Made by a program: the position numbers and the translations under genes | Source: a virus | Lineage: Duplodnaviria > Caudoviricetes | IMG/VR virus record: IMGVR_UViG_3300011339_000273 | Coordinates: 1 to 40,670 of that record | Strand: one strand, 5' to 3' | Length of the DNA stretch: 40,670 nucleotides | Shown here: in pieces, positions 8,060 through 38,582 of the stretch | How the letters are laid out: each line of letters opens with the position of its first letter | How positions within the stretch are numbered: position 1 is the stretch's first letter | Notes under the pieces: model-generated | What the model was told of the DNA's origin: nothing | Databases searched by the model: none | The model's input: only the letters and a program-made list of their open reading frames with translations

Positions 8060-8644
8060 TTACCCAAGCATCTGGGGTTGCACCATTTTTTTGGGGATAA
8101 GTACCCCACCTTTGCCCCAACGAAAACCCAACGGGGGCGCTGGGGGTTTAACCCCAGATTTGAGCATACTATCACGCATTTTTTCTTTTGTATCTAGCGT
8201 ATGGGATACCCCATAACGATGAGACATTTCCGGAGGGAGTTCAGCATTCCATACGGTCTGTCCCTTCTTGAACTCAGTACCCGGAGAATTTCTACCCCGT
8301 GCTTTTGCAGATTTACTCATCTTCAAACGAGATTCATCCGTATACTTAAAGTCCTTGCGCGATTCTGCTGCGCGTTCCCGCTCTGAGGCAAAGATCCGTG
8401 CCTTAAAATCTGGTATGCGCCCCATAGCAATCAAAGCTAACCAAAGGCCGCGAACACTTGGGTATATGCGAACAAGCAGTTTATGAGCAATGAAGTGTTC
8501 TTTTGCGGTCAGCAACACTAGGTTGCTCTTTGCATTGGAGCCACCCATACACTTAGGAACTATGTGGTGCTTCTCAGTGTATCCGACCAACTGACGTTGG
8601 GAAGCCTTCTCCATCAACGCAGTGTAAAGCCTCCCGTAGTCCAT
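8060..8644 (-). CDS. HNH homing endonuclease with NUMOD3-like tail
   Basis: EKHHIVPKCMGGSNAKSNLVLLTAKEHFIAHKLL; HTLDTKEKM repeat. Confidence 0.9.
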   Translation of the reverse strand: MDYGRLYTALMEKASQRQLVGYTEKHHIVPKCMGGSNAKSNLVLLTAKEHFIAHKLLVRIYPSVRGLWLALIAMGRIPDFKARIFASERERAAESRKDFKYTDESRLKMSKSAKARGRNSPGTEFKKGQTVWNAELPPEMSHRYGVSHTLDTKEKMRDSMLKSGVKPPAPPLGFRWGKGGVLIPKKMVQPQMLG

Positions 8645-20374: not shown

Positions 20375-20449
20375 TGGTTGCGGGAGAAGGACTTGAACCT
20401 TCGGCCTTTCGGGTATGAACCGAACGCGCTACCACTGCGCCACCCCGCT
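20375..20449 (-). tRNA. tRNA-Met(CAT), initiator-like
   Basis: AGCGGGGTGGCGCAGTGGTAGCGCGTTCGGTTCATACCCGAAAGGCCGAAGGTTCAAGTCCTTCTCCCGCAACCA: cloverleaf, CAT anticodon, encoded CCA, 1:72 mismatch. Confidence 0.93.
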
Positions 20450-23157: not shown

Positions 23158-23619
23158 TGGCGCGCACTCCGTGCGAAGTAGGAAACATAACGAAGTATAC
23201 AACTATACCCCCCTGTTTTGCAAATGGGGGTCTTTCCTACGTTTTTCTAGTTGCAGGGGGTGGGTCTTAGCCGGGCCGAAAATGCTTAGGGGGTGGGGGG
23301 TAATGCAAACGCATTACCTTTTTAGTTTTAGCAAAGGTGAGGTGTTCTGTTCCAGCTTTAAGGTGTTCTGTTTTCGTTCTTTTTAGAAAGGTTTGCGTGG
23401 AATAGTATACACTACGCGTATACCCCGTGCCCTCCCCCAAGGGGGGCCACCCCCACGTGGGGTCCAGCCTATGCCGTTTGGTGGCGGATTCTGGCGTTTC
23501 ATGGTTAGTTATGGCAACTAATCACAAAACATCGGTTGATCTAGTTTTTTAGATAGGCGATAAAGGTGTTGTTGAAAGGGAAATGGTTCCCACGACACAA
23601 ACCTAGGAAGGGTTTCACT

Positions 23620-24222
23620 ATGACTAATCTTTTAGTTACCGCCGCCATGATCGCCTCTGTTGTTTCGTTTGACAAGAAAGGCGATGACTTCGCCAAAGCG
23701 ACAGCAAAGCTTTGCGAGGACTTGCTTGCGGCAGGCGTTTCGCCTGAGTATTTCAAGCGGCCTGCAGGCGAGGCAAAGAAGAACAATCTTCATGTCGTTT
23801 CGTTCTATGGCCTATCTGAATTGGCCGTCAGAACAATTTCGGTAAAAGGAAAGAAGGCGAACGCCGAAACGATCCAGAAGTTTTTGGATCCTGAAGTGTC
23901 CAGCGCAGCAATGCTGCAAGGCACGCCAAAGGGTGGCACGGGCACATCTTGGAATAGCCAAGTGGCTAGCAAGCTTGGCCAATGGCGCGATAAGTTGAAT
24001 GCGCACATCGCGGCAAAAGCAGAACCGACGACAGAACCCAAGCCTGTCAGCACGCCAGAGCAAGTGATGCTGAAAGCGTTGCAGACCATGTACGACAAGA
24101 CGCGGAAGGCAGCGTTCAAGTGCCACGACGCGGATTCTTACAAGAAAGCGCTGCACCTCGCAGCCTTCGCGGTCACGGGCAAAGAAGGCCAGATCAAGAC
24201 TGGCGACAAGACCAAGAAGTGA
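23620..24222 (+). CDS. Hypothetical early protein
   Basis: ATG 23620 with AGGAAGG RBS; 200 aa, K/A-rich. Confidence 0.8.
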   Translation: MTNLLVTAAMIASVVSFDKKGDDFAKATAKLCEDLLAAGVSPEYFKRPAGEAKKNNLHVVSFYGLSELAVRTISVKGKKANAETIQKFLDPEVSSAAMLQGTPKGGTGTSWNSQVASKLGQWRDKLNAHIAAKAEPTTEPKPVSTPEQVMLKALQTMYDKTRKAAFKCHDADSYKKALHLAAFAVTGKEGQIKTGDKTKK

Positions 24223-24230
24223 CACTGGAC

Positions 24231-24256
24231 GGGGCGGCGCAAGCCGCCCCTTCTTT
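24231..24256 (+). terminator. Hairpin with GCAA loop, weak terminator
   Basis: GGGGCGGC-GCAA-GCCGCCCC then TTCTTT. Confidence 0.7.
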
Positions 24257-24281
24257 CCCCCTCAAACAATGGAAAAACAAA

Positions 24282-24458
24282 ATGACTGACTTGGAATACA
24301 TCTTGCAAGCCGCAAGTATCTTGGCCTTTGCAAAACGGAAAGAATTGAACGCGCTTAAAGCGATGTTGGAAGCGCACATGGGCGATGGGGCAAGCGCAAC
24401 TGTTGGTGACGACCTTGCTTATGCGTGGATTGAAAACGAATTGGATGCGTGCGAATGA
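24282..24458 (+). CDS. Small hypothetical protein
   Basis: MTDLEYILQAAS..., 58 aa, GGA-containing leader. Confidence 0.65.
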   Translation: MTDLEYILQAASILAFAKRKELNALKAMLEAHMGDGASATVGDDLAYAWIENELDACE

Positions 24459-24547
24459 ACGAATGGTTCGAAGATATCGTAACGCTGGCCTTGTTTGTGA
24501 TCGCCGTGCTTGTGATCGCCGTGCTTGGTTTTGGCCTTGGCCTTTGA
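24455..24547 (+). CDS. 30-aa single-pass membrane peptide
   Basis: ATGA overlap; MNEWFEDIVTLALFVIAVLVIAVLGFGLGL; ends just before terminator. Confidence 0.6.
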   Translation: MNEWFEDIVTLALFVIAVLVIAVLGFGLGL

Positions 24548-24553
24548 CACCTC

Positions 24554-24585
24554 ACCCCGCAGCCGAAAGGTTGCGGGGTTTTTTT
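24554..24585 (+). terminator. Rho-independent terminator
   Basis: ACCCCGCAGCC-GAAA-GGTTGCGGGGT followed by T-tract. Confidence 0.9.
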
Positions 24586-24838
24586 ATGTCCTGTGGCCTT
24601 CGATGCCTGTTCTCGCGCCCGCATATAGCCAAGAGGTTGACCCTTTGATTGCCACGCCCGACCCGTTAGTCACCGCGACTAAGGCCGCGCAGCACCGAGG
24701 CTAGTTCTCGCTCCCGCATCGAGCCAAGAGGTTTCGGCGTTGTGCAATACCAATCTAATACCAATGCCGCCGCAGCGAGGTTAGTCGGCCAAACTAAACC
24801 AGTTCTCGCTCCAGCATCTAGTCTGTTAGTTTGTACGA

Positions 24839-25117
24839 CTAACGGCTGAAGACCCGGCGGATGTTGTCGAGTTCTAGTGTGAGTTCTGCCATACGCTTAT
24901 TGTGATACTCCTGCATGGTGAGTTCCCCGATGCTTTCGTGGCACTTAGTGCAGGCGGGCTTTAGGTTACTCTTGGTTGCTGTGCCACCATGCTTAGTCGG
25001 GATAACTAAGTGCATATGCAACGCACGGGAACGTAGCGGCCCCGAACCACATAAAAAACAAAAAGGGTCGTTGTTAGCCAAGAACTCGTTACGTATACGG
25101 CGGGCGGTTGAAGTCAT
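24839..25117 (-). CDS. Small HNH (McrA-like Zn-binding) protein, possibly degenerate
   Basis: CFLC...HMHLVIPTKHGG....NLKPACTKCH; AAGGAG RBS. Confidence 0.75.
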   Translation of the reverse strand: MTSTARRIRNEFLANNDPFCFLCGSGPLRSRALHMHLVIPTKHGGTATKSNLKPACTKCHESIGELTMQEYHNKRMAELTLELDNIRRVFSR

Positions 25118-25248
25118 GATTTTGCTCCTTTTTAGGGTACACTTCCCTAAGTACTACTGTACCGGAACAAATAGCGAAGTACAAGTGTCCGTCGAAACTG
25201 TCTACAGTAATAAAAATCTGATGTACCACAAATGTGTACTTTTGTCCC

Positions 25249-25500
25249 AATGTTCGGGGCAATGTTCGCCCTAATGTTCGCTTTTTGCTCCTCGTAAGTA
25301 TTTGATATTGCAGGAAAGTTCATTTGTTCTAATGTTCCATTTGTCTCTTTCAGGGTAAAATATTTCCGCCCGTTTGGGCACGCGCGGCACTAGGAACATT
25401 GCACCAAAAAAATAAAATCGGTAAACAGAAAAACACTATGAACATTAGGAACATTAGGTACTTCCCAACAATATCAAGCACTTATATATATCTTTAAAAA
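25249..25500. other. Putative replication origin / nucleoprotein assembly region
   Basis: AT-rich; AATGTTC x4 and GAACATT x3; ~45-bp imperfect inverted repeat with two WATCAANNNNTTR sites. Confidence 0.5.
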
Positions 25501-25593
25501 TAACTTTAAGAACTTTACACTACACTCACTTTTTTCTCATGCTTTGTCAGCGTTAACCATCATCTACCACTTCTAACTATTTTAACTGAAAAC

Positions 25594-25643
25594 TAACTAT
25601 TTTTCACAGTATTGTGGCGCTCCCTGATAGAATGTGCTAAGGT
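25594..25643 (+). promoter_or_regulatory. Putative early sigma70 promoter
   Basis: TGGCGC-N17-TAAGGT with TGn extension; upstream 22-mer shared with 28566. Confidence 0.5.
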
Positions 25644-25649
25644 ACTAGT

Positions 25650-26330
25650 ACGGCCCGAAATTGAAACTTGACTCTCTGCCTTCGGGCCCCGCCTGCCTCG
25701 TTAGTCGCGCTGACTAACCGCTCTTTGACAATAGAATAGCTGAACACGCCGCTTGCCCCTTGGCGACACGTGTGCCCGAACGGATGGGATCAGCATCAAA
25801 ACAAGGGGGACGGCAGAATAGCTGCGTCCGAAAGTGCAGGGGTATGCAACCCTGTAGTCGGGCGGTCCAACGCTAACCTAAGCCGCTGTGCGACAGAGTA
25901 GGTCCACCAAGTATGGAGAAAAGAACTCCACCGCGTTGTTAGTTGTGATGACTAACGGCACACCGCGAAAGCGGGTAGGTGCAAAGGTTCTCCCAGAAAA
26001 GTAGATGCCGCTATCAGCCCCCCACTTGGGGCGGCACAGCAACGTGGTAACACCCACGCCTCGCAGAAGGGAACCAAGGATAAAAGGGCTCAGGCCCATT
26101 GCGAAACTGTCACGGCTCGGCTGGCTTGCGTTGCTGCAAGGATTCAGGGGAGCCCCCAAAGGGATTAACAGTCCATGGTTAAGCATACACACATCAAGAG
26201 GATGGGCGCTGCACATGGTGAACCAATCACCCCACGCTAACCCGTGCGACACACCGCCCGTCCTAGGTTATTTGTTTTTAAGTTATTCGTTTGGCACTTT
26301 AGTCATGCCAACTAACCGCGGCCATGCCGC
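25650..26330 (+). ncRNA. Candidate long structured non-coding RNA / leader
   Basis: No RBS-supported ORF; series of stem-loops and multibranch domains. Confidence 0.45.
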
Positions 26331-26349
26331 TAACAACTGGAGAACCACC

Positions 26350-26457
26350 ATGAAAAAAGAACTTAACGCTGCGCTGATCCGCGCCTTGGCGCTGCAACTA
26401 CGTGCCGCCCTACTACGGCAAATGGAAGCAATCGAAACCTTTAGTTTGGAGAACTAA
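26350..26457 (+). CDS. 35-aa hypothetical protein
   Basis: CTGGAGAA RBS; MKKELNAALIRALALQLRAALLRQMEAIETFSLEN. Confidence 0.55.
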   Translation: MKKELNAALIRALALQLRAALLRQMEAIETFSLEN

Positions 26458-26458
26458 G

Positions 26459-27412
26459 ATGAACACCAACACCAACACCAACACCAACACCAACACCACC
26501 TACAAGCACACCAACTTCACCCAGTTCAACGCTGACCTTCGCAAGGGCAAGGTCGCTGGCATCATCTTGTGGCGCGGGCCCAGCGCCATTGACGGCTCGC
26601 CCGTGTTAGTCGTGGCAACTAAGTTTGCACAAGACAGCGACAACACCAAAACAGGAGAGATGGTGCAAACCTACATCCTGCCCGACCCCCATGCCGCTGG
26701 CATTGTCGTGAACGGCTCCACCCCCGCCAAGATTAACGATTGGCTTAGATCCACGGGCGCTGTGAGTATCTGCGGCGACTGTCCCCACGCATGGCAGATG
26801 GTCGAAGGTTCATCGCCCGCCCGTTACGAGAAGGGCGCTTGCTACGTGCGGGAATACCAAAGCCCTGCCGCTGTGCTTGGCGCTATCTTCCGCGCCTCAT
26901 ATCCCGAGGCTGGCGTAGACTTCCCCGCCGATTGGGTTCCGATGCTGGCCGCTGGGCTGGCCGTGCGGCTTGGCTCTTATGGTGACCCCGCTGCCGCTGC
27001 GCCGCAGCCCCTGATTGCCCTAGTGTCCCGCGCTAAGACCCGCACGGGCTACACCCATATGTGGAAGAGCAAGTACCCGCTTGCGCGGGCTAACGCCGAG
27101 GCGCTGCGCCCATATGTCATGGCATCGTGCGACAACATGGAAGACTACGCCGAGGCCACCCGCTTGCGCTATCGTGCATTCCTCATTACCCCCAAGGACC
27201 GCGACTATTCCTCGCGTTCGCTCCTGTCCGTAGGCTCCCACATCGTGGACGCTATGATCTGCCCTGCATCCGAGCCGTTCCTTGCCTTGACGGGCCGCAA
27301 GACTTCCTGTGAAGACTGCGGGTCGTGCAGCGGGACCGAGGGCAAAGGGGCTCACCACCCCAACGTGTTTACCCCCGCACATGGCGCGACAGCATCCCGC
27401 TTCGCAGTTTGA
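26459..27412 (+). CDS. Gp88-like Cys-rich (radical SAM-like Fe-S) protein
   Basis: NTKTG.MVQTYIL, CGDCPH...CYV, RLGSYGDPAA, TGYTH.W, CPAS...CEDCGSC. Confidence 0.7.
   Translation: MNTNTNTNTNTNTTYKHTNFTQFNADLRKGKVAGIILWRGPSAIDGSPVLVVATKFAQDSDNTKTGEMVQTYILPDPHAAGIVVNGSTPAKINDWLRSTGAVSICGDCPHAWQMVEGSSPARYEKGACYVREYQSPAAVLGAIFRASYPEAGVDFPADWVPMLAAGLAVRLGSYGDPAAAAPQPLIALVSRAKTRTGYTHMWKSKYPLARANAEALRPYVMASCDNMEDYAEATRLRYRAFLITPKDRDYSSRSLLSVGSHIVDAMICPASEPFLALTGRKTSCEDCGSCSGTEGKGAHHPNVFTPAHGATASRFAV
26462..26497 (+). repeat. (AACACC)6 hexamer repeat encoding (NT)6
   Basis: Directly after the start codon. Confidence 0.95.
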
Positions 27413-27425
27413 TAGGAGAACTAAG

Positions 27426-27758
27426 ATGACAAAGACTTACGAAAACACTTGGGGCACACCCCTAGGCCAAGACTGTGTGGACCTGTGCAGCACCCTGCCG
27501 CGCTGGCTGGGTGAACGCCTGATGTTCTTGGGGATGCACACCAGCGGTGCGCCCGCTGCGTACTGGGATGGGGATGCGTCCTTACCCGTGCCGATTGACC
27601 GCTGGCGCAGCGACCTGACTAAGCATGGCCTCGCGCTGTCCTTGGTGGGCAACCTATCGAACCTCGACCTGACCATAGATGAAGAGGAGCGGGCGCACGA
27701 AGCCGCGCAACGCGCAATGGTGTGGGTCACGGCGAACCTGACAAACCTGTGGGATTAA
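27426..27758 (+). CDS. Hypothetical protein
   Basis: AGGAGAACTAAG-ATG leader. Confidence 0.75.
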   Translation: MTKTYENTWGTPLGQDCVDLCSTLPRWLGERLMFLGMHTSGAPAAYWDGDASLPVPIDRWRSDLTKHGLALSLVGNLSNLDLTIDEEERAHEAAQRAMVWVTANLTNLWD

Positions 27759-27800
27759 CCCTTGCCGCTTAGTCGCGGCAACTAACAACTGGAGAAGAAG

Positions 27801-28061
27801 ATGAACACGCATGAGATAGAAGCCCTGTTCAAGAAATACTGGGAAGGGACTGATCAGGATAAAGCCGAGGTGGCCGAGTATATCCGCAAGTCAGAGAACT
27901 TCGCCATGATGCGTTCCGCAGAGTTCGTGCAAGTCGCACAGAACTGGGCCGAGCGGCTAGGCATCAAGAGGATGACCGACGAAGAAGCCGAGGCGTATGA
28001 CGCCGCGCTGGATGCTGATACCGAAACCTGCCCCTGCTGCGGGCAACAACTGGAGAACTAA
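27801..28061 (+). CDS. Hypothetical protein with C-terminal CPCC motif
   Basis: CTGGAG RBS after palindrome 27769. Confidence 0.75.
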   Translation: MNTHEIEALFKKYWEGTDQDKAEVAEYIRKSENFAMMRSAEFVQVAQNWAERLGIKRMTDEEAEAYDAALDADTETCPCCGQQLEN

Positions 28062-28062
28062 G

Positions 28063-28533
28063 ATGGCACTTACCGACCTTTGCCTGCGCGACGAACGCCC
28101 GCACTTCTGCGAGGGGGTGCAACGCACCTACGCCCTGCCGAACGGGTACGAACTGAGCCTGATCAACTTCCCGAATGCACACGTATTTCCCTTTGCGTGG
28201 GAAGGTGCGGTGATCAACCCGCATGGCAAACTGGACTACGACACCCCGCTGACCAACGATGTCGAGGTGTTCCGCACCGAGGAGCAAACCAACGAGTGGA
28301 TCATCCGTGCCATCCTATGGGCCGAGGCCGAGGGAACTGTTATCAACCCCGACACCACAAACAGCGCCGATCCCTATCACCCCGACTACGGACTACCTGC
28401 CGTTGTACGGCTCCGCGCCGTACACATAGCCGAAACCAAAGGGGTAAAGGCCGCTGCATCCGAGTGCAATGTGGCGCTGTCCACTGTCTATCGCTGGCGT
28501 AATGCCTACGTGACTAGTGTTAGCTACACGTAG
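28063..28533 (+). CDS. Two-domain protein with C-terminal helix-turn-helix
   Basis: CTGGAGAACTAAG-ATG; C-terminal GVKAAASECNVALSTVYRWR. Confidence 0.75.
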   Translation: MALTDLCLRDERPHFCEGVQRTYALPNGYELSLINFPNAHVFPFAWEGAVINPHGKLDYDTPLTNDVEVFRTEEQTNEWIIRAILWAEAEGTVINPDTTNSADPYHPDYGLPAVVRLRAVHIAETKGVKAAASECNVALSTVYRWRNAYVTSVSYT

Positions 28534-28565
28534 CTAACACGAAAAAAACAAGTGGGGAGAATACT

Positions 28566-28615
28566 TAACTATTTTTCCCACTATTGTTGAACTACGCTAG
28601 CAAATAGTGTAGTAT
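28566..28615 (+). promoter_or_regulatory. Putative early sigma70 promoter
   Basis: TTGAAC-N17-TAGTAT (28587-28615) with AT-rich upstream 22-mer. Confidence 0.6.
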
Positions 28616-28705
28616 TGTATCAGGCGATGGTTAAACATCGCCGCGCCGACCTCGCTACCAAAACCAACAACCTTAGTCGCAACGACTAACATCTGGAGAA
28701 CTACT

Positions 28706-29614
28706 ATGACCAACCTTAACTTCAATGCCCCGTCCATCGCGTCCGCAGCTATGCTGGTTGACCTGTCCATCAGCCAGTGGAAAGGGCTGCGCCGTGACAA
28801 GGAGGCGTCCAAGAACCTCGCCGATAGCGTAGGGGCCAAGCGGGGCCACATGACCGCAAACAAGAAACTTCTTGGTGACAGCTTGGAACTCAAGGCCATC
28901 GATAGTTTCGTGGGCGCGGCCCGCACGGGTGTCCATCAGGACATGACGATGCCTTGGTCCAACAGCGGGCTGCGCTTGCTGCCGACCGCTAAGTTCTTTG
29001 ACTACCAGAAGGCCATCACAGCGCAACAGGCCAAGTTCTACGAACTGCTTGAGGAGTTCCTGCAATCCTACGAGTGGGCCCGTACCGAGGCTAAGGCTGC
29101 ACTGGGCAGCGTGTTCAACGACCGCGAGTACCCCACACGATCAGTCTTGGCGACTAAGTTTCGCTTCGTAGTAAACTATCTGCCCGTGCCCGAGGTTGGC
29201 GACTGGCGTGTAGACATGGGCAACACCGCCCGCAATGAACTGGCCGAGCACTATTCCAAGTACTACGAGGAGCAGAACCGCACTGCCGTGGCTACGCTAT
29301 ACGAGCAGACCCTCAAGCCCTTGCTGCATATGTCCAAGAAGTTGGCCGACCCTGTCGCTGGGGATGCGGTGAACAAGAGCGGCATCCAGACTTTCCGTGA
29401 TACACTTGTCGAGAACGTGGTCGATATGATTGACCGCTTGGAAGTTTACAACGTGATGGGTGACCTCACTATCCGCGAGACACGCTTCAAGTTGCAGCAG
29501 ATGCTGGACGGCATCACGCCCGATGCGCTGCGCGAAGATGCACACTTGCGCCGCGAGACTAAGCGCAAAGTGGATGAGGTTATTGCCTCGCTGCCTTCGC
29601 TCGACAACTGGTGA
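28706..29614 (+). CDS. DUF3150-like protein
   Basis: MLVDLSISQW.G...TMPW...G.RLLP...F...EYP....L..KF; adjacent to AAA/VWA genes. Confidence 0.6.
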   Translation: MTNLNFNAPSIASAAMLVDLSISQWKGLRRDKEASKNLADSVGAKRGHMTANKKLLGDSLELKAIDSFVGAARTGVHQDMTMPWSNSGLRLLPTAKFFDYQKAITAQQAKFYELLEEFLQSYEWARTEAKAALGSVFNDREYPTRSVLATKFRFVVNYLPVPEVGDWRVDMGNTARNELAEHYSKYYEEQNRTAVATLYEQTLKPLLHMSKKLADPVAGDAVNKSGIQTFRDTLVENVVDMIDRLEVYNVMGDLTIRETRFKLQQMLDGITPDALREDAHLRRETKRKVDEVIASLPSLDNW

Positions 29615-29672
29615 GGGCGCAAGCCCCCGCTATCCTAAAAACAAAACCACAACTTAGTCTGGAGGACTAACA

Positions 29673-30764: not shown

Positions 30765-30813
30765 CCATAACACGGGGCGCTTAGTCGCCCCGACTAACAA
30801 CTGGAGAACTAAT

Positions 30814-32004
30814 ATGTTTATGCAAAATACGATCACGCTAGAGCAGCGTGTCCAAAAGTCGGCTGTGGCTATCATGGCCCATCCGAAGTGGTCGGCCCTT
30901 GCGGGTGTCATTATGATTGGCAAGCGCGGTGTGTCTGATACTTGCCCGACTGCGTACACCGATGGCGTCAACGTCATGTTTGGCCGTGCGTTCTTTACTG
31001 ATATGCCCGATGCAGAGTTGCGCTTCGTCGATGTGCACGAGCAATTCCACAAGATGTATCGCCACCTGACTACGTGGGCATGGATGTGGAAGATCGATAA
31101 GCAGCTTGCCAACATGGCCTGTGACTACGTCATCAACTGCAAGATCTACGATGCCTCTGCGGGCGATGGGTTCTTAGTCATGCCCAAGAAAGGTTTGCTC
31201 GACTTCAAGTATCGCGGCATGGATGCAGCACAAGTGTTCAACTTGCTGCGTAAGGATCAAGAAGGCGGCAAGGGTAAGGGCCAAGGTCAGGGCGAGGGCT
31301 TCGACGAGCACGACTGGGAAGCAGCCGAGGAGATGACTGACGCGGAGAAGCGCGAGGTAGCGCAGGATATCGACGAGGCTATCCGTCAAGGTGCGCTGGT
31401 TGCGGGCAAGATGGGCAGCGGTGGTGAGCGCATCGTCGGGGAGTTGCTAGAACCGCAGGTCGATTGGCGCGAGGCGCTGCGTGACTTCATCACGACTACC
31501 TGTGCTGGCAAAGATTATTCCACGTGGACTAAGCCCAACCGCAGGTTCGTCGGTGCAGGTATCTATATGCCTAGCGGCATCACCGAGCGTGTCGGGGAAC
31601 TGGTATTGGCGATTGACACATCAGGCTCAACCTATGCTCCGGGCGTCCTTGATGCTTTCATGGCCGAGGCCAAGTCGCTGTGCGATACAGTCAAGCCCGA
31701 TGTTCTGCACATCATCTACTGGGATACCAAGGTATGCCATGCCGAGCGGTATGAAGCCGACCAACTAGAAAACTTACTCTCTACGACTAAGCCCAAGGGT
31801 GGTGGCGGCACTCACATCCCGTGTGTCCCCGAATACATGGCCGAGCAGGGTATCATTCCGCAAGCCGTGGTTGTCCTGACCGATGGCTATCTGGGTGGCG
31901 TGTGGGGCACGTGGTCCTGCCCCGTCCTGTGGTGCGTCCTCGACAACAAGTCGGCCAACCCGTCCGTTGGTCAAACTGTCCACATCAAATCGCATGATAT
32001 GTAA
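30814..32004 (+). CDS. Metallopeptidase-like + VWA domain protein (DUF2201-like)
   Basis: TAYTDG, HEQFH (HExxH), N.ACDYVIN; MIDAS DTSGS...GGGT...LTDG. Confidence 0.88.
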   Translation: MFMQNTITLEQRVQKSAVAIMAHPKWSALAGVIMIGKRGVSDTCPTAYTDGVNVMFGRAFFTDMPDAELRFVDVHEQFHKMYRHLTTWAWMWKIDKQLANMACDYVINCKIYDASAGDGFLVMPKKGLLDFKYRGMDAAQVFNLLRKDQEGGKGKGQGQGEGFDEHDWEAAEEMTDAEKREVAQDIDEAIRQGALVAGKMGSGGERIVGELLEPQVDWREALRDFITTTCAGKDYSTWTKPNRRFVGAGIYMPSGITERVGELVLAIDTSGSTYAPGVLDAFMAEAKSLCDTVKPDVLHIIYWDTKVCHAERYEADQLENLLSTTKPKGGGGTHIPCVPEYMAEQGIIPQAVVVLTDGYLGGVWGTWSCPVLWCVLDNKSANPSVGQTVHIKSHDM

Positions 32005-32016
32005 GGAGAAAACAAC

Positions 32017-33057
32017 ATGACACGTATATATCCACCCGCTCGCCCCTGCTCGTTCTTTGAGGTAGTCGCTACCTATAACAACATCAAACCCTCAAAGGGT
32101 AAGTACGCTGCCTACGATGTCCGCCCCTTGGGGCGGCGCAGCAATCAACACGAACGCATCATCAAGATCGATGAGAATACCTATGCGCTGTGGCCGTCCA
32201 CGCACTGGTGGGTCGATTCTAAAAACCTCGACCTTGAGGATGCACGTATCCGTGCGGCTGTCCTGTGGGAGCGCACCGACAAGGGCGACTTCATCCACGT
32301 GCGTAACTCTTGGTTCAATAGCAGTAACATTTCACACTATCGGTTCTTGAACGAGGTGCTGCCTTACGGGCTGAACTATCATACGGGAAACGGCAAGCAG
32401 TACGTCATCCCGCACTTTGCTTTGAAGAAGCACTATCTGCCGCACGACGAATGGTTTGGTGGGTCGTATGCGAAGCACATATCTGGAGACCCCAACAAGC
32501 CCAATGTGGTCGACAACAGCCCGTTAACTCCTGAACTTGTTTACAGGCACGAAGGCGACAGGAAGTTTACGCTGGTTAGCGAGGAGTACGCCGCGCCCAA
32601 GAAGGCTGTGAACTTGGCGGATAAGAAGGCGCTGACGCCCAGCATCAGGGCTTTCAAGGAGTGGGCGTTGGTCATGGCCCCTATGCTGAACCTGAAGCCG
32701 TATTGGCTGTGGGATGGAAACAAAGAAGCCACCAGCTACACTATGGCTAGGGAAGCACACGCCGCCCAAAACACTACCGATGAGCGGTTGCTCAGGGATT
32801 GGATGGAGAGCAATGGGTACGGAAAGGTGTACGTCATGGACCATGTTGCGCCTAAGATCATACGGCAGATCGTGGAGACTGAAGACCACCCGATGCGCGT
32901 GGTGCTAGCTAAGTACGTCTTAGATGACTGCGGCTACACGCGCATTGCAGATGAAACCCGCAGGAAAGTGTACGACGAGCGCGAGGCGCGGGCCAAGTTC
33001 GGCACTGTGTTTAACTACCACATGAACCGCATCCTTGGTCTTGTGGAAAATAAGTAA
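32017..33057 (+). CDS. Hypothetical protein
   Basis: 346 aa, AAGGAG RBS. Confidence 0.8.
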   Translation: MTRIYPPARPCSFFEVVATYNNIKPSKGKYAAYDVRPLGRRSNQHERIIKIDENTYALWPSTHWWVDSKNLDLEDARIRAAVLWERTDKGDFIHVRNSWFNSSNISHYRFLNEVLPYGLNYHTGNGKQYVIPHFALKKHYLPHDEWFGGSYAKHISGDPNKPNVVDNSPLTPELVYRHEGDRKFTLVSEEYAAPKKAVNLADKKALTPSIRAFKEWALVMAPMLNLKPYWLWDGNKEATSYTMAREAHAAQNTTDERLLRDWMESNGYGKVYVMDHVAPKIIRQIVETEDHPMRVVLAKYVLDDCGYTRIADETRRKVYDEREARAKFGTVFNYHMNRILGLVENK

Positions 33058-33106
33058 GCAATAAGTATAACCCTTAGTCGCAACGACTAACATCTGGAGA
33101 ACTACA

Positions 33107-34015
33107 ATGGCTGAACATTATGAAGTAGTTAGACTGGAAGAACAGACAGAGGAGCAGTTCAACACACGGAGCCGTGGCACACACGGGGTGACGATAGATG
33201 GGTTCGTCACCGCCCTCAAAGCAGAGATGCCTTACCTCAAGTTTCGCAGCACTCAGGCATACAACAGTGAGGTCGCTGTGTACCGCGAGGGGGATGCCTT
33301 AGCTATGGGCTGGATTGGTTATGGCGACTACAGTCCGGGGGTATCTAGCGTCAAGCGATACACTGTATTCAGCCTAAACATTGACAATGGTAAGTATTCT
33401 AAGAGTTCTAACCAGCGCAATATGGCAATGACCACAGACTTGGGCAAAGCCGTCAAGCTAGTAAAGAAGCACTTACGCCCGATACCAACCGAGGTGGCAG
33501 CAAAGCATTCCCTGACAGAGTTAAACTATGCTTATTCAGAGGCACACAAGGGCGCTAGGAAGTTACTAGATGAGAGCCGCCGCGCAATCGTCGGCGCTTC
33601 AGGGGACGTATTCCTCAACCCCGCCTTGGAGAATGTCTTCGCTTTGCTACGTATGCAGGAACAGCCTATCGGTGACGCGGTCTTTAACGCGCACGTGAAT
33701 AACTACTTCATCGCTAAGGACGCAATGGCCGAGGCCAAGACTTTGCACGGCGACATATACTTCGTGCATCCGCAGATGAAGTTTGGCGAACCAGTATACA
33801 ACCTAACCTCAATCACGTGGAACCAAACAGTCCCGTCTGTGCTGCCAAGATTTCACGTGATGGAGTCTCTTGCTGCGGCTTACGCTGCTGCCGTGGGGGT
33901 AGACATGGAGGCAATCAAGGGCCGTGTCGCTGTGCTGCACATGATGCAGACTAATGAGTTCGTCGTTGGCGTGGGTATGAAGGTCGACGCTAATCGTTAC
34001 TTCGTGGTGGTGTGA
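33107..34015 (+). CDS. Hypothetical protein
   Basis: 302 aa, palindrome + CTGGAG leader. Confidence 0.8.
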   Translation: MAEHYEVVRLEEQTEEQFNTRSRGTHGVTIDGFVTALKAEMPYLKFRSTQAYNSEVAVYREGDALAMGWIGYGDYSPGVSSVKRYTVFSLNIDNGKYSKSSNQRNMAMTTDLGKAVKLVKKHLRPIPTEVAAKHSLTELNYAYSEAHKGARKLLDESRRAIVGASGDVFLNPALENVFALLRMQEQPIGDAVFNAHVNNYFIAKDAMAEAKTLHGDIYFVHPQMKFGEPVYNLTSITWNQTVPSVLPRFHVMESLAAAYAAAVGVDMEAIKGRVAVLHMMQTNEFVVGVGMKVDANRYFVVV

Positions 34016-34479
34016 TGACGAGCACACGCGAACGGATTGAGGATGCGTTTGGGAGGAAAGCCGCTAACCCAAGACTGCATCACCTATGGCTTAAAGAACT
34101 AGCCGAGACTTATCGCCAGTACAGGGACTTAGTGTACACGTACATGAGTAACCCACAGTTCACTATGCTTGTTAAGAAAGCACTCGTTGCGCACGATGTA
34201 CTTGCTATGCCAAAGCACACAACAGTTTATCGTGTGGCGCTACATCCTGATAGGGATAATATCGAAGTGGTAAGTATTGGCATGGAACGTGTTGATACCA
34301 CACCCGATACTGTGTATGCTGACTTCTCACGACTACCCACGTGGATGCAGGACAGGCTTCACGTGATGATTATGCTAGATGATACCGCGCCCACCGAGCA
34401 CATAGAAGGCATTGGACGGCGCATAAGTAAGTACGTGTTTTGGCTGGAGATACCTAAAGGAGAGAACAATCATGGCTGA
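34012..34479 (+). CDS. Hypothetical protein
   Basis: Coupled start; C-terminal LP.W..DRL.V......IEGIGRR motif resembling upstream gene end. Confidence 0.75.
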   Translation: MMTSTRERIEDAFGRKAANPRLHHLWLKELAETYRQYRDLVYTYMSNPQFTMLVKKALVAHDVLAMPKHTTVYRVALHPDRDNIEVVSIGMERVDTTPDTVYADFSRLPTWMQDRLHVMIMLDDTAPTEHIEGIGRRISKYVFWLEIPKGENNHG

Positions 34480-34780
34480 TACGCCAGAGAAGAAAGTAAA
34501 GATTAAACTTGTAGCGCAGCTTAAAGCCTTGGGTGCGTATTACTTTTACCCCGTGACAGGCGGCTATGGCGCAAGCGGTGTGCCCGATGTGATCTGCTGC
34601 TACAAGGGCAGGTTCTTTGGGTTCGAGTGCAAGGCTGGCAACAACAAGCCAACTACCCTGCAAGATATTAACATAGAGGCCATCCGCAAGTCGGGTGGTT
34701 ACGCCCTTGTTGTCAACGAGGAGAACGTAGGGGTGATGACGCAATACTTAGTGGGGGCAACTAATGATCCCGCTGAATAA
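34472..34780 (+). CDS. VRR-NUC nuclease
   Basis: PEKKVK...GVPDVICCYKGRFFGFECKAG..KPT.LQ. Confidence 0.88.
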   Translation: MADTPEKKVKIKLVAQLKALGAYYFYPVTGGYGASGVPDVICCYKGRFFGFECKAGNNKPTTLQDINIEAIRKSGGYALVVNEENVGVMTQYLVGATNDPAE

Positions 34781-34922
34781 CCTGAAGCCTAAGCACGTGC
34801 TGGCCCTGTATCGTATCGGCAAGGCCAAGGGCCGTGGGCTAGCGCCCTTCCTCAAGCACCCCCGTGACATGATCGCGCTGCGTAAAGAAGCGCAGCGGGT
34901 CGGAAAACTGGTGTCGAAATGA
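34764..34922 (+). CDS. 52-aa basic hypothetical protein (not in ORF track)
   Basis: MIPLNNLKPKHVLALYRIGKAKGRG...VSK; GGGGG RBS inside near-palindrome 34748; ATGA overlap with next gene. Confidence 0.55.
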   Translation: MIPLNNLKPKHVLALYRIGKAKGRGLAPFLKHPRDMIALRKEAQRVGKLVSK

Positions 34923-35650
34923 ACGCGCCGTTTGAACCCACAAGGGATGTACGAGGTAACTCTACGGCCAAATGCACTTGTAAAAAGTGCGGACATTCAA
35001 TGAATGTCAAAAGCGCTTATGCCACGCGGGCTAATTCTGCGCGGGGCCCTGAAGTTAACATGGCACAAGTTATGCCGAAACTACACGCAGCGGGGTGGAC
35101 CTACATCAAAGGTGTTCTGCGCTGTCCGGCCTGTAACCTAGAAAGTACTTCCCCGTTTGCGCCGCTTGAACCGCACCACCACTTTTACACGCCCAACCCT
35201 CTGGAGAACATCATGGCTAAAGAACCTACAGTTATCGTTATCCCGCCGCCGCCCGTACCACCGCTGCGGCAACCCTCACGGGACCAGAAGCGCCAGATCG
35301 TCGCTGCTCTGGAAATGGCATACGACATCAAGAACCAGCGGTACTCAGGCACTGAGACCGACAAAAGTATCGCCGATATGCTTGGTGATAGCATCATGTA
35401 CGGATGGGTCGCTACGATCCGTGAGGATATGTTTGGGCCCGATGGCAACGAGGAGTTGGGTAGCCTTGCGGCTGACGTTGCAGCATGGATGAAGAAAGTA
35501 GATGCGCAGATGTACGCCGCCGAGGTGGCTGTGGCTGAGATCGAAAACAGCCGCGCCGACCTCGAAAACAGCCGCACCGAGGTCAAGAAATACCAAGAAC
35601 GCCTCAACAAGATCATTGCCGCTATTGGGCCGAAAGCGGAGAAATTGTAA
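34919..35650 (+). CDS. Zn-finger + coiled-coil hypothetical protein (possible second start at 35213)
   Basis: CKKC...GW......CPAC; internal CTGGAGAACATC-ATG. Confidence 0.75.
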   Translation: MNAPFEPTRDVRGNSTAKCTCKKCGHSMNVKSAYATRANSARGPEVNMAQVMPKLHAAGWTYIKGVLRCPACNLESTSPFAPLEPHHHFYTPNPLENIMAKEPTVIVIPPPPVPPLRQPSRDQKRQIVAALEMAYDIKNQRYSGTETDKSIADMLGDSIMYGWVATIREDMFGPDGNEELGSLAADVAAWMKKVDAQMYAAEVAVAEIENSRADLENSRTEVKKYQERLNKIIAAIGPKAEKL

Positions 35651-35958
35651 TGATAACTAAAATACGGGGCGTTACATACCCCTCAGTGAAGGCTGCATCA
35701 GAGGCGCTGGGGGTAACAGTCAATGCCATCTACTCCGCACTTAATCGGGGGAACATAGACACAGTAGGCTTAGGCAAGAGCCAGCCGCGCCATGTCGATC
35801 TTGACGGTGACGGACTATCTTTCAAGTCTATTCGGTCGGCAAGTTTGGCACTTGGCTTTGGGCGCACTTACCTAAGCAAAGTGCTTACCCGTGAAAGCGC
35901 CCACGGCCTAAAGAAAGTCAAAGAGGCGGTAGCAGCATACAAGGAGAAAACAAAATGA
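35650..35958 (+). CDS. NUMOD1-like tandem HTH DNA-binding protein
   Basis: YPSVKAASEALGV and FKSIRSASLALG repeats. Confidence 0.7.
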   Translation: MITKIRGVTYPSVKAASEALGVTVNAIYSALNRGNIDTVGLGKSQPRHVDLDGDGLSFKSIRSASLALGFGRTYLSKVLTRESAHGLKKVKEAVAAYKEKTK

Positions 35959-36341
35959 TCATAACAGCAGCGGCAGCGACCTGCCTTGCCCTCAACATCT
36001 ACTTTGAGGGGCGGAGCGAAAGCTATGACGGCCAGAAGCTAATCGCCGAGGTCACCATGGAGCGCGTATATACAGATGGGTTTCCCAAAACTGTCTGCGG
36101 CGTTGTCTGGGAAGATGGTGCGTTTAGCTGGACCCACGATGGCAAGAGCGACCGCCCACGGGACATTGATGCGTGGCTGACAGCGCAGATCATCGCCAAC
36201 GAAACCTTGCTGTACGGGTGCGAGTTTTGCACTGGCGCGACCTACTACCACACCCGCGATGTGCTGCCGTATTGGGCTGACGACATGGTGATGGTGGGAA
36301 TGTACGGCAACCATGTTTTTTATAAGGGGTGTGATGAATGA
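35955..36341 (+). CDS. Cell wall hydrolase (SleB/Hydrolase_2)
   Basis: CLALNIYFEGRSE...GQ...FPKTVCGVV....FSW...GATYYH...GNHVFY. Confidence 0.88.
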   Translation: MIITAAAATCLALNIYFEGRSESYDGQKLIAEVTMERVYTDGFPKTVCGVVWEDGAFSWTHDGKSDRPRDIDAWLTAQIIANETLLYGCEFCTGATYYHTRDVLPYWADDMVMVGMYGNHVFYKGCDE

Positions 36342-36718
36342 CTGAGGATGATAAGTTCCGTATCGAACTCCACAGGTCTGATGTTTACTATGGCGACCCA
36401 CTAGCCGCCGACCGCATCGAGGAGTTGGTGAAGGAGCGGGAACGTTTAGCCCTTGCCATTTGCGGCGGCGAAGATGCGGTGGGGTATGCTAATGCACAAT
36501 CCGTCGAGGCGTTGGAAAAGGTGGCGCGAGACAATGCAGCGATGACAATGTGGCAGATTGATAAAACAATGCAAGCAGAAGCCAAGCTGACCAAGGCGGT
36601 GGCGGGGCTGCGGAAGATTGCGGATTACACACACATTGGCGAATCTGGCCAAGGCGTCAAGCAACACGCTGAAGCACGAATTGCCATCGCCGTGCTGGCT
36701 GAACTGGAGGGCCAGTGA
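36338..36718 (+). CDS. Hypothetical coiled-coil protein
   Basis: ADRIEEL / AEAKLTKAV / AVLAELE modules. Confidence 0.7.
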   Translation: MTEDDKFRIELHRSDVYYGDPLAADRIEELVKERERLALAICGGEDAVGYANAQSVEALEKVARDNAAMTMWQIDKTMQAEAKLTKAVAGLRKIADYTHIGESGQGVKQHAEARIAIAVLAELEGQ

Positions 36719-37173
36719 TGGGTGACGATATGACTGACCAAGAACAGAAAAAGCAGTTGCAGATTGATGCAGGTATTCCGCACTTGCCAACAGACCTGAC
36801 CTATCAATGCCGCATTGCAATAGCTGGCGAAGGTGAGCGTGGTTGGGAATGGCAGGATAAGCCGCACCGTTTAGTCTATGACCTATGCCGTCAAGTAGAG
36901 GCTGATGCCGACCGCATCGAAGAGTTGATAGAGGAAAACAAGGAACTGACGCTGCAACTGCTTGCGGTTCATGGTCAGGCCGCAGATGCACTGGACAAGG
37001 CCGTGGTCGCAGAAGCCAAGCTGGCCAAGGCGGTGGAGGCGCTGCGGGTAGCTCTTGAAGGGTTGAATTGGGCCAAAGCCTATTTGTCAACGAGTGGCAT
37101 TGATAGCGTTCCGGTCAATTATGCGGACGCAAAGGTTTACGCCGTGCTGGCTGAACTGGAGGTAAAGGAATGA
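36715..37173 (+). CDS. Hypothetical coiled-coil protein
   Basis: Same modules as previous gene; coupled start. Confidence 0.7.
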   Translation: MMGDDMTDQEQKKQLQIDAGIPHLPTDLTYQCRIAIAGEGERGWEWQDKPHRLVYDLCRQVEADADRIEELIEENKELTLQLLAVHGQAADALDKAVVAEAKLAKAVEALRVALEGLNWAKAYLSTSGIDSVPVNYADAKVYAVLAELEVKE

Positions 37174-37358
37174 GCGAGGTCCGACGTAAACCTATCGAAT
37201 TTGAATTCGATGATGGCATCACTTACATCAGCTTTGACGACGATCACACCATCCGCGACATCATACGATATCTGCTGTCCACAGGCGTGGAGGCAAGCGA
37301 ACTGATCGACCACATAAACGATCCGACTTTGCTGGCTGAACTGGAGCGGAAAGAATGA
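37170..37358 (+). CDS. Small hypothetical protein
   Basis: ATGA coupling; ends LLAELERKE. Confidence 0.65.
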   Translation: MSEVRRKPIEFEFDDGITYISFDDDHTIRDIIRYLLSTGVEASELIDHINDPTLLAELERKE

Positions 37359-37594
37359 ACCATGACATAACAAAAGAAGGGGGCGGTAGCTTTGGGCTTA
37401 CGTTAAATGCAATCGACGTAGGCGACACAATAGTTTATCATGTAGGTGCTTACGCTAAGGGTCCGCACAAGGCCGACGCACTGAAGGCATACGAAGCGGG
37501 CCTGTGCTTTCTCTACCAACGCAAGCTGCCCGATGGGCGGTTTGCTTACACCGCCGCTAAGAAAAAAACCCTTGATGCAAAAAATACCCGCTGA
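37355..37594 (+). CDS. Small hypothetical protein
   Basis: GD.IVYHVG...G...LYQRK.....F.Y motif. Confidence 0.7.
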   Translation: MNHDITKEGGGSFGLTLNAIDVGDTIVYHVGAYAKGPHKADALKAYEAGLCFLYQRKLPDGRFAYTAAKKKTLDAKNTR

Positions 37595-37722
37595 TAGAAA
37601 GATGGTGAGGGGCGTGAAACAATCTAACAAACGGCAACGGATGTCATTTTGTATTGGTCAGAAATCTGACTGCGCTACGGCCTATTTCCCCAATCGCCCC
37701 TCACCAATTCCTATAGAAGTAA

Positions 37723-38151
37723 GTGGCTGATGATTTAAAAAAGCAGCGTTGGAGGGAGGCGTCTAGGCGTTACTTCGAAAAGAACCGCACTCAGATTTTA
37801 GCGCAAAACCGAGAACGTGCAAAGAAAAAAGACGCAGAAGACCCCCTAAGCCGCGAGACAAGAAACTTAAAAAAACGTGCCAATGGGCTAGGCATAACAA
37901 AAGACCAATGGGAGAAGATGTTTGACAGCCAAGGACGCGTATGCGCCATATGCAAGTCCGAAATTTCAGGACATAAAAACGGGTGGCACTTGGATCACTG
38001 CCACAAGACTAAAACGGTGCGCTTCATTTTGTGCACACACTGCAACCGAGGGCTGGGTGGGTTTCGCGATAGCCCCGAACTACTAAGACGCGCAGCAGAT
38101 GCGCTTGAGGCTTTCAATAAGAACAGGTTAGACGATGGCAAAGTGGAGTGA
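37723..38151 (+). CDS. Recombination endonuclease VII-like (homing) nuclease
   Basis: Q...CAIC...LDHCHKT..VR..LC..CNRGLG.FRD. Confidence 0.9.
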   Translation: MADDLKKQRWREASRRYFEKNRTQILAQNRERAKKKDAEDPLSRETRNLKKRANGLGITKDQWEKMFDSQGRVCAICKSEISGHKNGWHLDHCHKTKTVRFILCTHCNRGLGGFRDSPELLRRAADALEAFNKNRLDDGKVE

Positions 38152-38155
38152 TACG

Positions 38156-38560
38156 ATGGCTATAGGCGGTGGGATCAGGTTTACCCCCGAAGAACAAGCA
38201 GACGAGTCAATACTGGACGCAGCGTTTGCTAAAGCGAACGAGTACCCCGATGGCAACCCGAAGACGGTCTTTGGTGAGGCAAAGCCGAAACTGAGCGACA
38301 CGCCGACTATTGGTATTCAGCTTATGGGTAAGGTGCACACCAACGGGGCCGCTAAGTATGGGCGCTTTAACTGGCGTGAGCACCAAGTGTCCTCCACTGT
38401 CTATTATGATGCGGCGCTTCGCCACCTGATGGCTTGGTTTAACGGGGAGACTATCGACCCAGAGAGTGGGCTACCTCACCTCGCCCATGTCATGGCTTGC
38501 TGCAACATCCTGCTGGATGCCGAGCAGCACAAGAAGCTGAACGACAACCGCGATAAATAA
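38156..38560 (+). CDS. dATP/dGTP diphosphohydrolase-like protein (DUF5664)
   Basis: GAAKYGRFNWR...YYDAALRHL.AW..GE..DPESGLPHLAH...C..IL. Confidence 0.85.
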   Translation: MAIGGGIRFTPEEQADESILDAAFAKANEYPDGNPKTVFGEAKPKLSDTPTIGIQLMGKVHTNGAAKYGRFNWREHQVSSTVYYDAALRHLMAWFNGETIDPESGLPHLAHVMACCNILLDAEQHKKLNDNRDK

Positions 38561-38582
38561 AAACTTAGTCTGGAGGACTAAA

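What the first reader, a model, noticed from the sequence alone, without database searches (positions are those of the whole stretch)
23505..38581. Arm-wide network of 17-bp palindromes TTAGTY-N5-RACTAA: candidate undescribed phage regulatory system
Seen: 16 exact copies (23505, 24666, 24781, 24826, 24993, 25701, 25939, 26299, 26441, 26606, 27769, 28673, 29654, 30781, 33074, 38565) plus one-mismatch copies (29141, 31774, 34748). I found none in the 23.5-kb structural arm by manual scan. Uniform-composition chance is about 40670/4^11, ~0.01 copies. Half-sites are fixed and the spacer is always 5 bp but varies in sequence. The inner Y/R positions do not co-vary (C with A is common), which fits a dimeric DNA-binding protein site better than an RNA stem. 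Most copies are in leaders, but two exact copies persist inside ORFs (24993, 26606). Inference: multi-operator repression of the whole early arm, a loading/protection signal on first-injected DNA, or hairpin promoters.
Basis: partly seen in the sequence, partly recalled or inferred. Interest (0 to 1): 0.88.

Follow-up and report, generated by a model that had tools for sequence, protein, structure and literature searches.

The report
Type-specific palindromes matched to early protein
This uncultured phage carries 16 exact copies of one 17-base DNA palindrome, all in its early-gene arm, and related phages swap that palindrome together with their first early protein, which likely binds it and would give each phage type a private switch for its early genes.

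Summary
All 16 exact and 3 one-mismatch copies are confirmed; none with one mismatch or fewer lies in the structural arm. The window is an uncultured phage distantly related to HTVC023P and MinM2. 48 of 55 related loci carry their own multi-copy palindrome, mostly of a different sequence; 99 of 100 sites in 10 near-complete genomes lie in the early arm. The palindrome tracks the first early gene (23620-24222, 'gp1', no known family): phages 96-100% identical in TerL and the AAA ATPase but with different palindromes have gp1 only 16-19% identical. A gp1 ortholog is predicted to be an all-helical homodimer (0.80, best control 0.13) with a basic, Gln-rich helix. Deviations show no G-U bias, which favours DNA over RNA reading. 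Best reading: a dispersed operator system for a new dimeric regulator in an integrase-less phage; binding and repression are inferred. Unexplained: the C-terminal part of the giant, likely ejected, virion protein also tracks the palindrome. Similar orphan repeats are published (Cluster O, EG) and earlier scan notes saw this system.

The parts
23505..23521 (.). first palindrome, 98 nt upstream of gp1; equivalent site upstream of gp1 in most relatives
   Evidence: a site lies between 260 nt before and 60 nt after the gp1 start in 67 of 77 loci
23620..24222 (+). gp1, first early gene, 200 aa, K+R 31 / D+E 20, all-helical model; candidate cognate binding protein; putative recognition helix about residues 108-125
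   Evidence: (no family)
24666..24682 (.). exact copy, non-coding, after a terminator-like hairpin at 24554-24579
   Evidence: kept in G003
24781..24797 (.). exact copy, non-coding
24826..24842 (.). exact copy, overlaps the stop of the HNH-like ORF 24839-25117
24993..25009 (.). exact copy inside the HNH-like ORF (minus strand); absent at the aligned place in G003
25701..25717 (.). exact copy, non-coding; identical in G003; overlaps a weak sigma70-like -35 (9 of 12)
25939..25955 (.). exact copy in a leader-like region
26299..26315 (.). exact copy 34 nt before a 35-codon ORF
26441..26457 (.). exact copy holding the ribosome-binding site of 26459-27412 and the stop of the 35-codon ORF
26606..26622 (.). 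exact copy in frame inside the 317-aa ORF; the ortholog in G004 (other palindrome) lacks the left half
27769..27785 (.). exact copy at a gene junction, 15 nt before ATG 27801
28673..28689 (.). exact copy 16 nt before the DUF3150-like gene 28706
   Evidence: name from the MinM2 homolog
29141..29157 (.). one-mismatch copy in frame in 28706-29614; absent in the G004 ortholog
29654..29670 (.). exact copy holding the ribosome-binding site of the MoxR-like AAA ATPase gene 29673
30781..30797 (.). exact copy at the AAA / VWA-like (DUF2201) gene junction
31774..31790 (.). one-mismatch copy in frame in the DUF2201 gene; exact in G003 and G001, absent in G004
33074..33090 (.). exact copy at a gene junction, 16 nt before ATG 33107
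34748..34764 (.). one-mismatch copy at the end of the endonuclease gene 34472-34780
38565..38581 (.). exact copy holding the ribosome-binding site of the family A DNA polymerase gene 38583

Best explanation
The palindromes are likely double-stranded DNA docking sites for gp1 (23620-24222), the first early protein, which is predicted to form a symmetric dimer and likely damps transcription of the early arm as it accumulates. Shown: the sites, their confinement to the early arm, their swap between near-identical phages, and the matching swap of gp1. Predicted: the helical fold and the homodimer (for an ortholog). Inferred: (1) gp1 binds the sites through the basic, Gln-rich long helix; (2) bound dimers act mainly as roadblocks in leaders, at gene junctions and inside genes, as stoperators do, because most sites are not on promoters; (3) since gp1 would also act on an incoming phage with the same sites, it would exclude later phages of its own type, which would select for repeated switches of protein and sites together and explain the many types.
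For: Sequence-fixed arms within a genome but a different palindrome in each lineage, 48 of 55 loci with 4 or more copies. 99 of 100 exact sites in the early arm of 10 near-complete genomes, where that arm is 29-47% of the genome. gp1 nearest neighbour shares the palindrome class in 24 of 26 loci; other genes 17/26 (TerL), 19/26 (TerS), 20/26 (DUF3150-like), 16/26 (AAA), 13/20 (VWA), 9/12, 9/12, 9/10 (classes set by eye, 5 near-duplicates dropped). L130/L131: TerL 100, TerS 99, AAA 98, VWA 98, gp1 16%, different palindromes; L179/G011: 99, 100, 96, gp1 19%. Among 180 locus pairs with TerL/AAA at least 85% identical, 161 are concordant (77 similar gp1 and same site, 84 both different), 19 are not (pairs not independent). 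On the AAA tree the TTCGGGC site and its gp1 type appear together in 3 separate places inside the TTAGGGA clade, the TTTACG site with gp1 type g13 in 2 places. L161/L162 (98-100% in 7 genes, gp1 77%): 10 of 38 differences fall in helix 86-103 (p 0.0014, window chosen after seeing the alignment; 2-5 in six other comparisons). Conserved K84, K/R87, R88, Q91-93, G95, R97 in 149 homologs. Homodimer score 0.80, best of 3 controls 0.13; mark reached by 20 of 30 solved dimers and 1 of 23 monomers; runs agree in at least 93% of contacts, pLDDT at least 84. Deviant arm pairs: G-U 30, A-C 34, other 124 on the mRNA strand. In-gene copies follow the type.
Against: No binding or expression data. gp1 has no sequence or fold match to a known DNA-binding family. 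G001 shares the window's palindrome but its first gene is only 15-20% identical and weakly alignable (hhalign probability 34); 14 of 180 close pairs have similar sites with gp1 under 45%. MinM2 has 21 palindromes but its first gene does not align, and G020 has sites with no gp1 profile hit. The site before gp1 ends 19-38 nt upstream of the -35 in the 13 loci where a promoter pattern was called, which is not a classic repressing position. The C-terminal part of the giant virion protein co-varies about as well (52 of 60 close pairs) and this reading does not explain it. The dimer was predicted for the G006 ortholog, not for the window's protein.
Confidence: 0.55

Rival explanations
1. The sites are self-tags on the first-entering DNA that are read during genome entry, by the C-terminal part of the giant LPD39 virion protein or by gp1 working with it, to pace, pull in or protect the genome, or to let gp1 block entry of same-type phages.
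For: G005 and G011 share 85-91% identity in the N-terminal part of the giant protein but 37-40% in its last ~1000 aa, while same-type G017 has 84-91%; G008 has 75-92% with three same-type phages over most of that region and 21-30% with G013. 52 of 60 helicase-close pairs concordant. The gene lies about 20-30 kb from gp1. Sites are densest in the first ~5 kb after TerS. An LPD38 protein of phi24B is proposed to be an ejection protein (10.64898/2026.04.10.717836, passages).
Against: 8 of 60 pairs break the link, involving L484, L488, L548 (each typed from one site only), L465/L536 and one borderline pair; G001 and G003 share the palindrome with 31% identity in that region. The link could reflect host-specific ecotypes rather than contact with the sites. 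The late arm, which could not be pulled in by rightward transcription, has almost no sites. The physical genome end and the direction of entry were not determined.
Confidence: 0.17
2. The element acts as an RNA hairpin bound by gp1 in the early mRNA, controlling translation, processing or antitermination gene by gene.
For: 7 of 16 window sites end 1-16 nt before an ATG and 3 hold the ribosome-binding site in the loop. Mean predicted arm pairing in local context is 0.68 on the mRNA strand, 0.57 on the other, 0.53 +/- 0.07 with swapped flanks.
Against: Isolated hairpins are weak (-0.3 to -5.5 kcal/mol); C-A outnumbers T-G at the inner pair (5 vs 2); no G-U bias over all loci (30 vs 34); no extra pairing beyond the core (this test is biased by local base composition); several types are perfect palindromes through the centre (G010, G011); copies sit deep in genes and in non-coding DNA.
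Confidence: 0.11
3. The sites are activator sites or hairpin promoters for a phage factor or a virion RNA polymerase (N4-like).
For: The site before gp1 lies 19-38 nt upstream of a -35, an activator-like position (13 loci). Residues 47-107 of the ortholog model align weakly to sigma region 4 (3mzy, Z 5.9, rmsd 2.4, 59 residues), below the level that means anything for helical proteins.
Against: Most junction sites leave no room for a start between site and ribosome-binding site; 3 window sites contain it. No DxDGD (recalled catalytic motif) in 21 ORFs over 900 aa; Pfam of 4 giant proteins gave LPD38/39, GNAT and ART only; no PDB sequence hit. A divergent single-subunit polymerase is not excluded.
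Confidence: 0.1
4. The sites are boxes of a host regulator or recombination sites that shuffle early genes.
For: Many sites sit exactly between a stop codon and the next ribosome-binding site, like cassette boundaries.
Against: Phages 96-100% identical in core genes carry unrelated palindromes that follow a phage gene; more than 20 types; conserved core genes are flanked as often as accessory ones; no tyrosine recombinase in 5 of 5 complete genomes. The host is unknown, so a host box was not tested directly.
Confidence: 0.05

Closest known systems
Cluster A mycobacteriophage repressor with operators/stoperators (PMC6550527, passages; PMC9283540, abstract and outline)
   Same: 20-30 dispersed sites, most not at promoters; site motif distance follows repressor distance; basis of immunity groups.
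   Different: Those sites are asymmetric 13-mers oriented with transcription and read by a monomer with an HTH and a second domain, in temperate phages. Here the sites are palindromes, the candidate is a predicted homodimer of no known family, it is the first early gene, and no integrase or ParA was found.
Cluster O mycobacteriophage 17-bp dyad repeat (PMC4351075, passages)
   Same: 17-bp palindromes, over 30 copies, between and inside genes, mostly in the non-structural arm; no integrase; authors predict a dimeric protein acting other than at initiation; function unknown.
   Different: 7-bp arms with a 3-bp spacer, one sequence across the cluster, no cognate protein named; unrelated hosts. 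Homology of gp1 to Cluster O proteins was not tested.
Cluster EG Microbacterium phage 18-bp inverted repeats; Cluster K ESAS (PMC7302621, passages)
   Same: 8-10 inverted repeats 14-22 bp upstream of start codons at one genome end; no repressor or integrase identified.
   Different: Same sequence in all three phages; no type switching or partner gene reported in the passages read.
Phage phiC31 conserved inverted repeats with repressor c; lambdoid CI/Cro operators; phage P1 C1 operators (all recalled; one search found no library paper on the phiC31 repeats)
   Same: Repeated sites bound by a phage repressor, with specificity defining immunity groups.
   Different: Temperate phages with HTH repressors. 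The Atlas's nearest named cluster for gp1 was Streptomyces repressor c at 0.79, under the lead threshold.

Membership tests
Cluster A stoperator system | asymmetric site oriented with transcription | tested here: not met
   Sites are dyads; spacer occurs in both orientations in G008 and G013.
Cluster A stoperator system | many sites away from promoters, at gene junctions and in genes | tested here: met
Cluster A stoperator system | site motif co-varies with a phage repressor gene | tested here: met
   co-varies with gp1; that gp1 represses is inferred
Cluster A stoperator system | HTH-plus-stoperator-domain monomeric repressor | tested here: inconclusive
   no Pfam, PHROG, PDB sequence or fold match; homodimer predicted
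Cluster A stoperator system | bound repressor blocks elongation and gives superinfection immunity | not testable with these tools
   needs experiment
Temperate immunity region (CI-like) | integrase or partition system | tested here: not met
   PF00589 in 0 of 5 and PF13614 in 0 of 5 complete genomes; serine recombinases not searched
Cluster O / EG orphan inverted repeats | 16-18-bp dyad repeated in the non-structural arm of an integrase-less phage, near start codons | tested here: met
   against passages; resemblance of layout, not shared sequence
Cluster O / EG orphan inverted repeats | shared descent (homologous partner protein) | not tested
   those genomes were not fetched
N4-type hairpin promoters | virion RNA polymerase | tested here: inconclusive
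   no polymerase domain or DxDGD found; no fold of the giant protein was run
N4-type hairpin promoters | hairpin upstream of the transcription start | tested here: not met
   for 3 of 16 window sites the ribosome-binding site is inside the palindrome; starts not mapped for the rest
Known structured RNA | Rfam match | tested here: not met
   only a tRNA in 20000-40670

The most novel reading that the evidence does not exclude
A three-part self-recognition code in a widespread lytic phage family: palindromes on the first-entering arm, a new-family dimeric first-gene protein and the C-terminal part of the giant ejection protein switch together as one identity module, coupling genome entry or superinfection exclusion to a DNA barcode while the rest of the genome recombines freely.
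Probability: 0.2. Interest if true: 0.92.

Novelty: new variant of a known kind. Interest (0 to 1): 0.74.

Why it matters
Repeated palindromes before the genes of lytic phages have been noted without a partner or function (Cluster O, EG). Here a candidate partner is named, with natural swap experiments that make it testable with one small protein and short oligonucleotides. The family is large (564 representatives at 50% identity) and matches no known fold in the searches run, so it may be a new DNA-reading scaffold with dozens of natural specificities: a ready data set for a recognition code and for orthogonal switches. If it gives exclusion groups without lysogeny, it would explain how near-identical phages of aquatic metagenomes stay distinct at a few barrier loci. 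The link to the giant virion protein hints at something beyond transcription control.

Tried and rejected
HTH candidates: window ORF 28063-28533 (2 of 16 relatives, wrong pattern) and the core HTH_17 protein after the helicase (near-invariant across types). Early genes 32017 and 33107 follow the backbone. Fold searches gave nothing clear: best Z 5.1 (window model) and 6.1 (ortholog), none at 8 or more; Foldseek 0 hits at E 0.001 in viral and PDB libraries; this does not show a new fold. PDB profile searches: none under E 0.1 for gp1, none under 1 for the giant protein's C-terminal region. No RNA holder was listed for the window. GTDB scan with TerL: 6 loci, all metagenome-bin contigs at 35-51% identity, so no host or prophage was identified. 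No palindrome family above 3-5 copies and no gp1 profile hit in the stretches of HTVC023P (50 of 61 kb), HTVC027P (24 of 58 kb) and DSL-LC04 (28 of 62 kb) examined; no gp1 hit among cultured phages. The first collection scan with the motif was too loose: 2 of 120 loci had more than one copy. The stem-extension test is confounded by local composition and is not used as proof. Rank correlations over all pairs do not single out gp1 (rho 0.19, others 0.17-0.29), because unrelated types dominate; only the close-pair and nearest-neighbour tests do. Literature: 10 searches found no paper on these repeats in this phage family; the HTVC023P-type genome paper PMC9599517 has 0 hits for 'palindrom' and 'inverted repeat' in its main text (supplements not read). 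Subscription papers, including any on MinM2, Pag-Yong1 or Pra-JY27, were not searchable.
Full report
Observation. The three one-mismatch copies are right and none with 0-1 mismatch lies left of 23505. Spacing is fixed: 17 of 18 half-site pairs within 29 nt are 7 apart. The inner Y and R vary independently (C-G 7, C-A 5, T-A 2, T-G 2).

Context. The window is a 68%-complete virus record. Its left 23 kb on the minus strand encode terminase, portal, GroES, capsid, adaptor, tail and lysis proteins; its right 17 kb on the plus strand encode small early proteins, a MoxR-like AAA ATPase, a DUF2201 protein, nucleases and a family A polymerase. The nearest named phages are HTVC023P/027P, 023Pt_psg01, DSL-LC04 and MinM2/Pag-Yong1/Pra-JY27 (TerL 42-47%, capsid 63-75%). 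The host is unknown. No tyrosine integrase or ParA was found in 5 of 5 complete relatives.

The sites in relatives. Of 55 loci found with the ATPase, 48 carry 4 or more copies of one palindrome, and the sequence differs by lineage: for example GTTAGTG-N3-CACTAAC, TTAGGGA-N2-TCCCTAA, TTCGGGCA-N2-TGCCCGAA, TTTACGGAATTCCGTAAA, TCTAGTG-N5-CACTAGA. The window's own motif recurs in G003 (20 exact) and G001 (19). In 10 near-complete genomes 99 of 100 exact sites lie in the early arm, which is 29-47% of the genome, and they are densest in the first 5 kb after TerS. Typical places are upstream of the first gene, a non-coding leader, and gene junctions between a stop codon and the next ribosome-binding site. 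MinM2 has 21 copies of its own palindrome, 5 of them in the structural arm (arm from the annotation).

The partner. The first plus-strand gene after TerS (window 23620-24222, here gp1) is a positional ortholog with no Pfam or PHROG family. The window's branch aligns to the wider family (hhalign probability 98), which has 564 representatives at 50% identity. Its sequence follows the palindrome, not the backbone. Nearest neighbours share the palindrome class in 24 of 26 loci, more than for any of 5 other genes with 20 or more testable loci. L130 and L131 are 98-100% identical in TerL, TerS, AAA and VWA but 16% in gp1 and have unrelated palindromes; their DNA alignment shows site-sized patches exchanged between flanks about 97% identical, including one inside a coding region. 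Among 180 pairs with TerL/AAA at 85% or more, 161 are concordant and 19 are not (non-independent; most discordant pairs are related motifs or near a threshold). On the ATPase tree, site type and gp1 type switch together repeatedly. L161 and L162 are 98-100% identical in seven genes and 77% in gp1; L162 has four new-type sites, one half-converted site and one unchanged old-type site, and its gp1 changes cluster in helix 86-103 (10 of 38; p 0.0014, post hoc). A site lies near the gp1 start in 67 of 77 loci.

Structure. Models are all-helical (window pLDDT 75; G006 ortholog 94.5). The ortholog is predicted to form a homodimer (0.80, best control 0.13; 20 of 30 solved dimers and 1 of 23 monomers reach the mark). 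Confident contacts involve the N-terminal helix and the C-terminal hairpin; none is listed for residues 64-96, which leaves their state open. The long helix carries conserved Lys/Arg and a Gln triplet, as major-groove helices often do (general knowledge). No solved or viral structure matched clearly; a sigma region 4 row at Z 5.9 is a lead only.

DNA or RNA. Deviant arm pairs are G-U-compatible on the mRNA strand 30 times and A-C 34 times; isolated hairpins are weak; some types are palindromic through the centre; in-gene copies at 26606, 29141 and 31774 are missing from the orthologs of G004, which uses another palindrome. In local context the arms are nonetheless predicted to pair often (0.68 vs 0.53 +/- 0.07), so an RNA role is weakened, not excluded.

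Against and unexplained. G001 shares the window's palindrome with a barely alignable first gene; MinM2's first gene does not align. The site before gp1 is upstream of the -35, not on it (13 loci). The last ~1000 aa of the giant LPD39 protein, the last late gene and missing from the window, also follow the palindrome: G005 and G011 are 85-91% identical in the preceding part and 37-40% in this one; 52 of 60 close pairs are concordant, with real-looking breaks; in complete genomes gp1 and this region drop together between types. An LPD38 protein of phi24B is proposed to be an ejection protein. This may mean direct contact, exclusion at entry, or host-specific ecotypes.

Mechanism. Most likely gp1, made first from a host-polymerase promoter, binds the dyads as a dimer and damps the early arm, mostly by blocking polymerase or occluding leaders; acting in trans, it would silence later phages of the same type, and escape from this would drive joint switches of protein and sites while recombination evens out the rest of the genome. 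Sites, swaps and co-variation are shown; dimer and fold are predicted; binding, repression and exclusion are inferred (0.55 for the whole chain; about 0.75 for gp1 binding the sites).

Known kinds. It works most like Cluster A stoperators but fails their defining asymmetry; it looks most like the orphan dyads of Cluster O and EG phages, for which no partner was named in the passages read. Ten library searches found no description for this family. Eight earlier AI notes from this scan describe what seems the same system in other genomes; I saw them after reaching the gp1 result, and they are not independent evidence. Additions here are the near-identical-genome swaps, the helix clustering, the dimer prediction and the link to the giant virion protein. 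Verdict: real; new variant of a known kind; interest 0.74.

Noticed in passing
G005/G011/G017 and G008/G013/G019 giant late protein (e.g. L191:5293-8394, minus strand); gene absent from the window: The C-terminal ~1000 aa of the LPD39 giant protein switch abruptly between palindrome types while the preceding part can stay 85-91% identical.
   Followed up: partly
G005 (L193, record position about 49395-49435); L162:9805: Relic sites of another type: G005 carries two TTTACG-type matches, one right beside its own site; L162 keeps one old-type site and one half-converted site.
   Followed up: partly
L133, L318, L320: One gp1 type goes with two spacer lengths (3 and 4 bp) in the same genome, 7 and 5 copies in L133: a possible route for spacing switches.
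   Followed up: no
window 24601-24831: Three 38-nt direct repeats spaced 95-98 nt, interleaved with three palindromes; the same leader word follows sites in G003, G001 and marine relatives. Possibly a small RNA or repeated leader unit; no Rfam match.
   Followed up: no
window 25700-26300: Long non-coding stretch conserved with G003 and G004 around three sites, with a minus-strand ORF (25878-26252) of doubtful reality; candidate non-coding RNA.
   Followed up: no
window 24839-25117: Short HNH-like ORF on the minus strand within the early leader, holding one site and ending in another; similar remnants in G003, G001, L032.
   Followed up: partly
window 20375-20449: tRNA-Met(CAT) between TerL and portal on the minus strand.
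   Followed up: yes
window 8060-8644, 13171-14016, 37723-38151: HNH/NUMOD3, GIY-YIG and endonuclease VII genes; the GIY-YIG gene lies just downstream of the capsid gene.
   Followed up: no
G001 early arm (L182, about 47000-56000 in the record): Several genes end in Gly/Asp/Tyr-rich repeats (GGC-TAC-GGC type) directly followed by stop, palindrome and ribosome-binding site.
   Followed up: no
G003, G004 and all 12 relatives with that region, after the exonuclease (L185:15691-15945, minus strand): A highly conserved, very basic 81-100-aa protein of unknown function (75-92% between close relatives); several genomes have a site right after it.
   Followed up: no
window 1-100 and 26462-26500: Low-complexity repeats: ACC/GCC runs (Gly-rich on the minus strand) at the left end, and an AACACC run at the start of the 317-aa ORF.
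   Followed up: no
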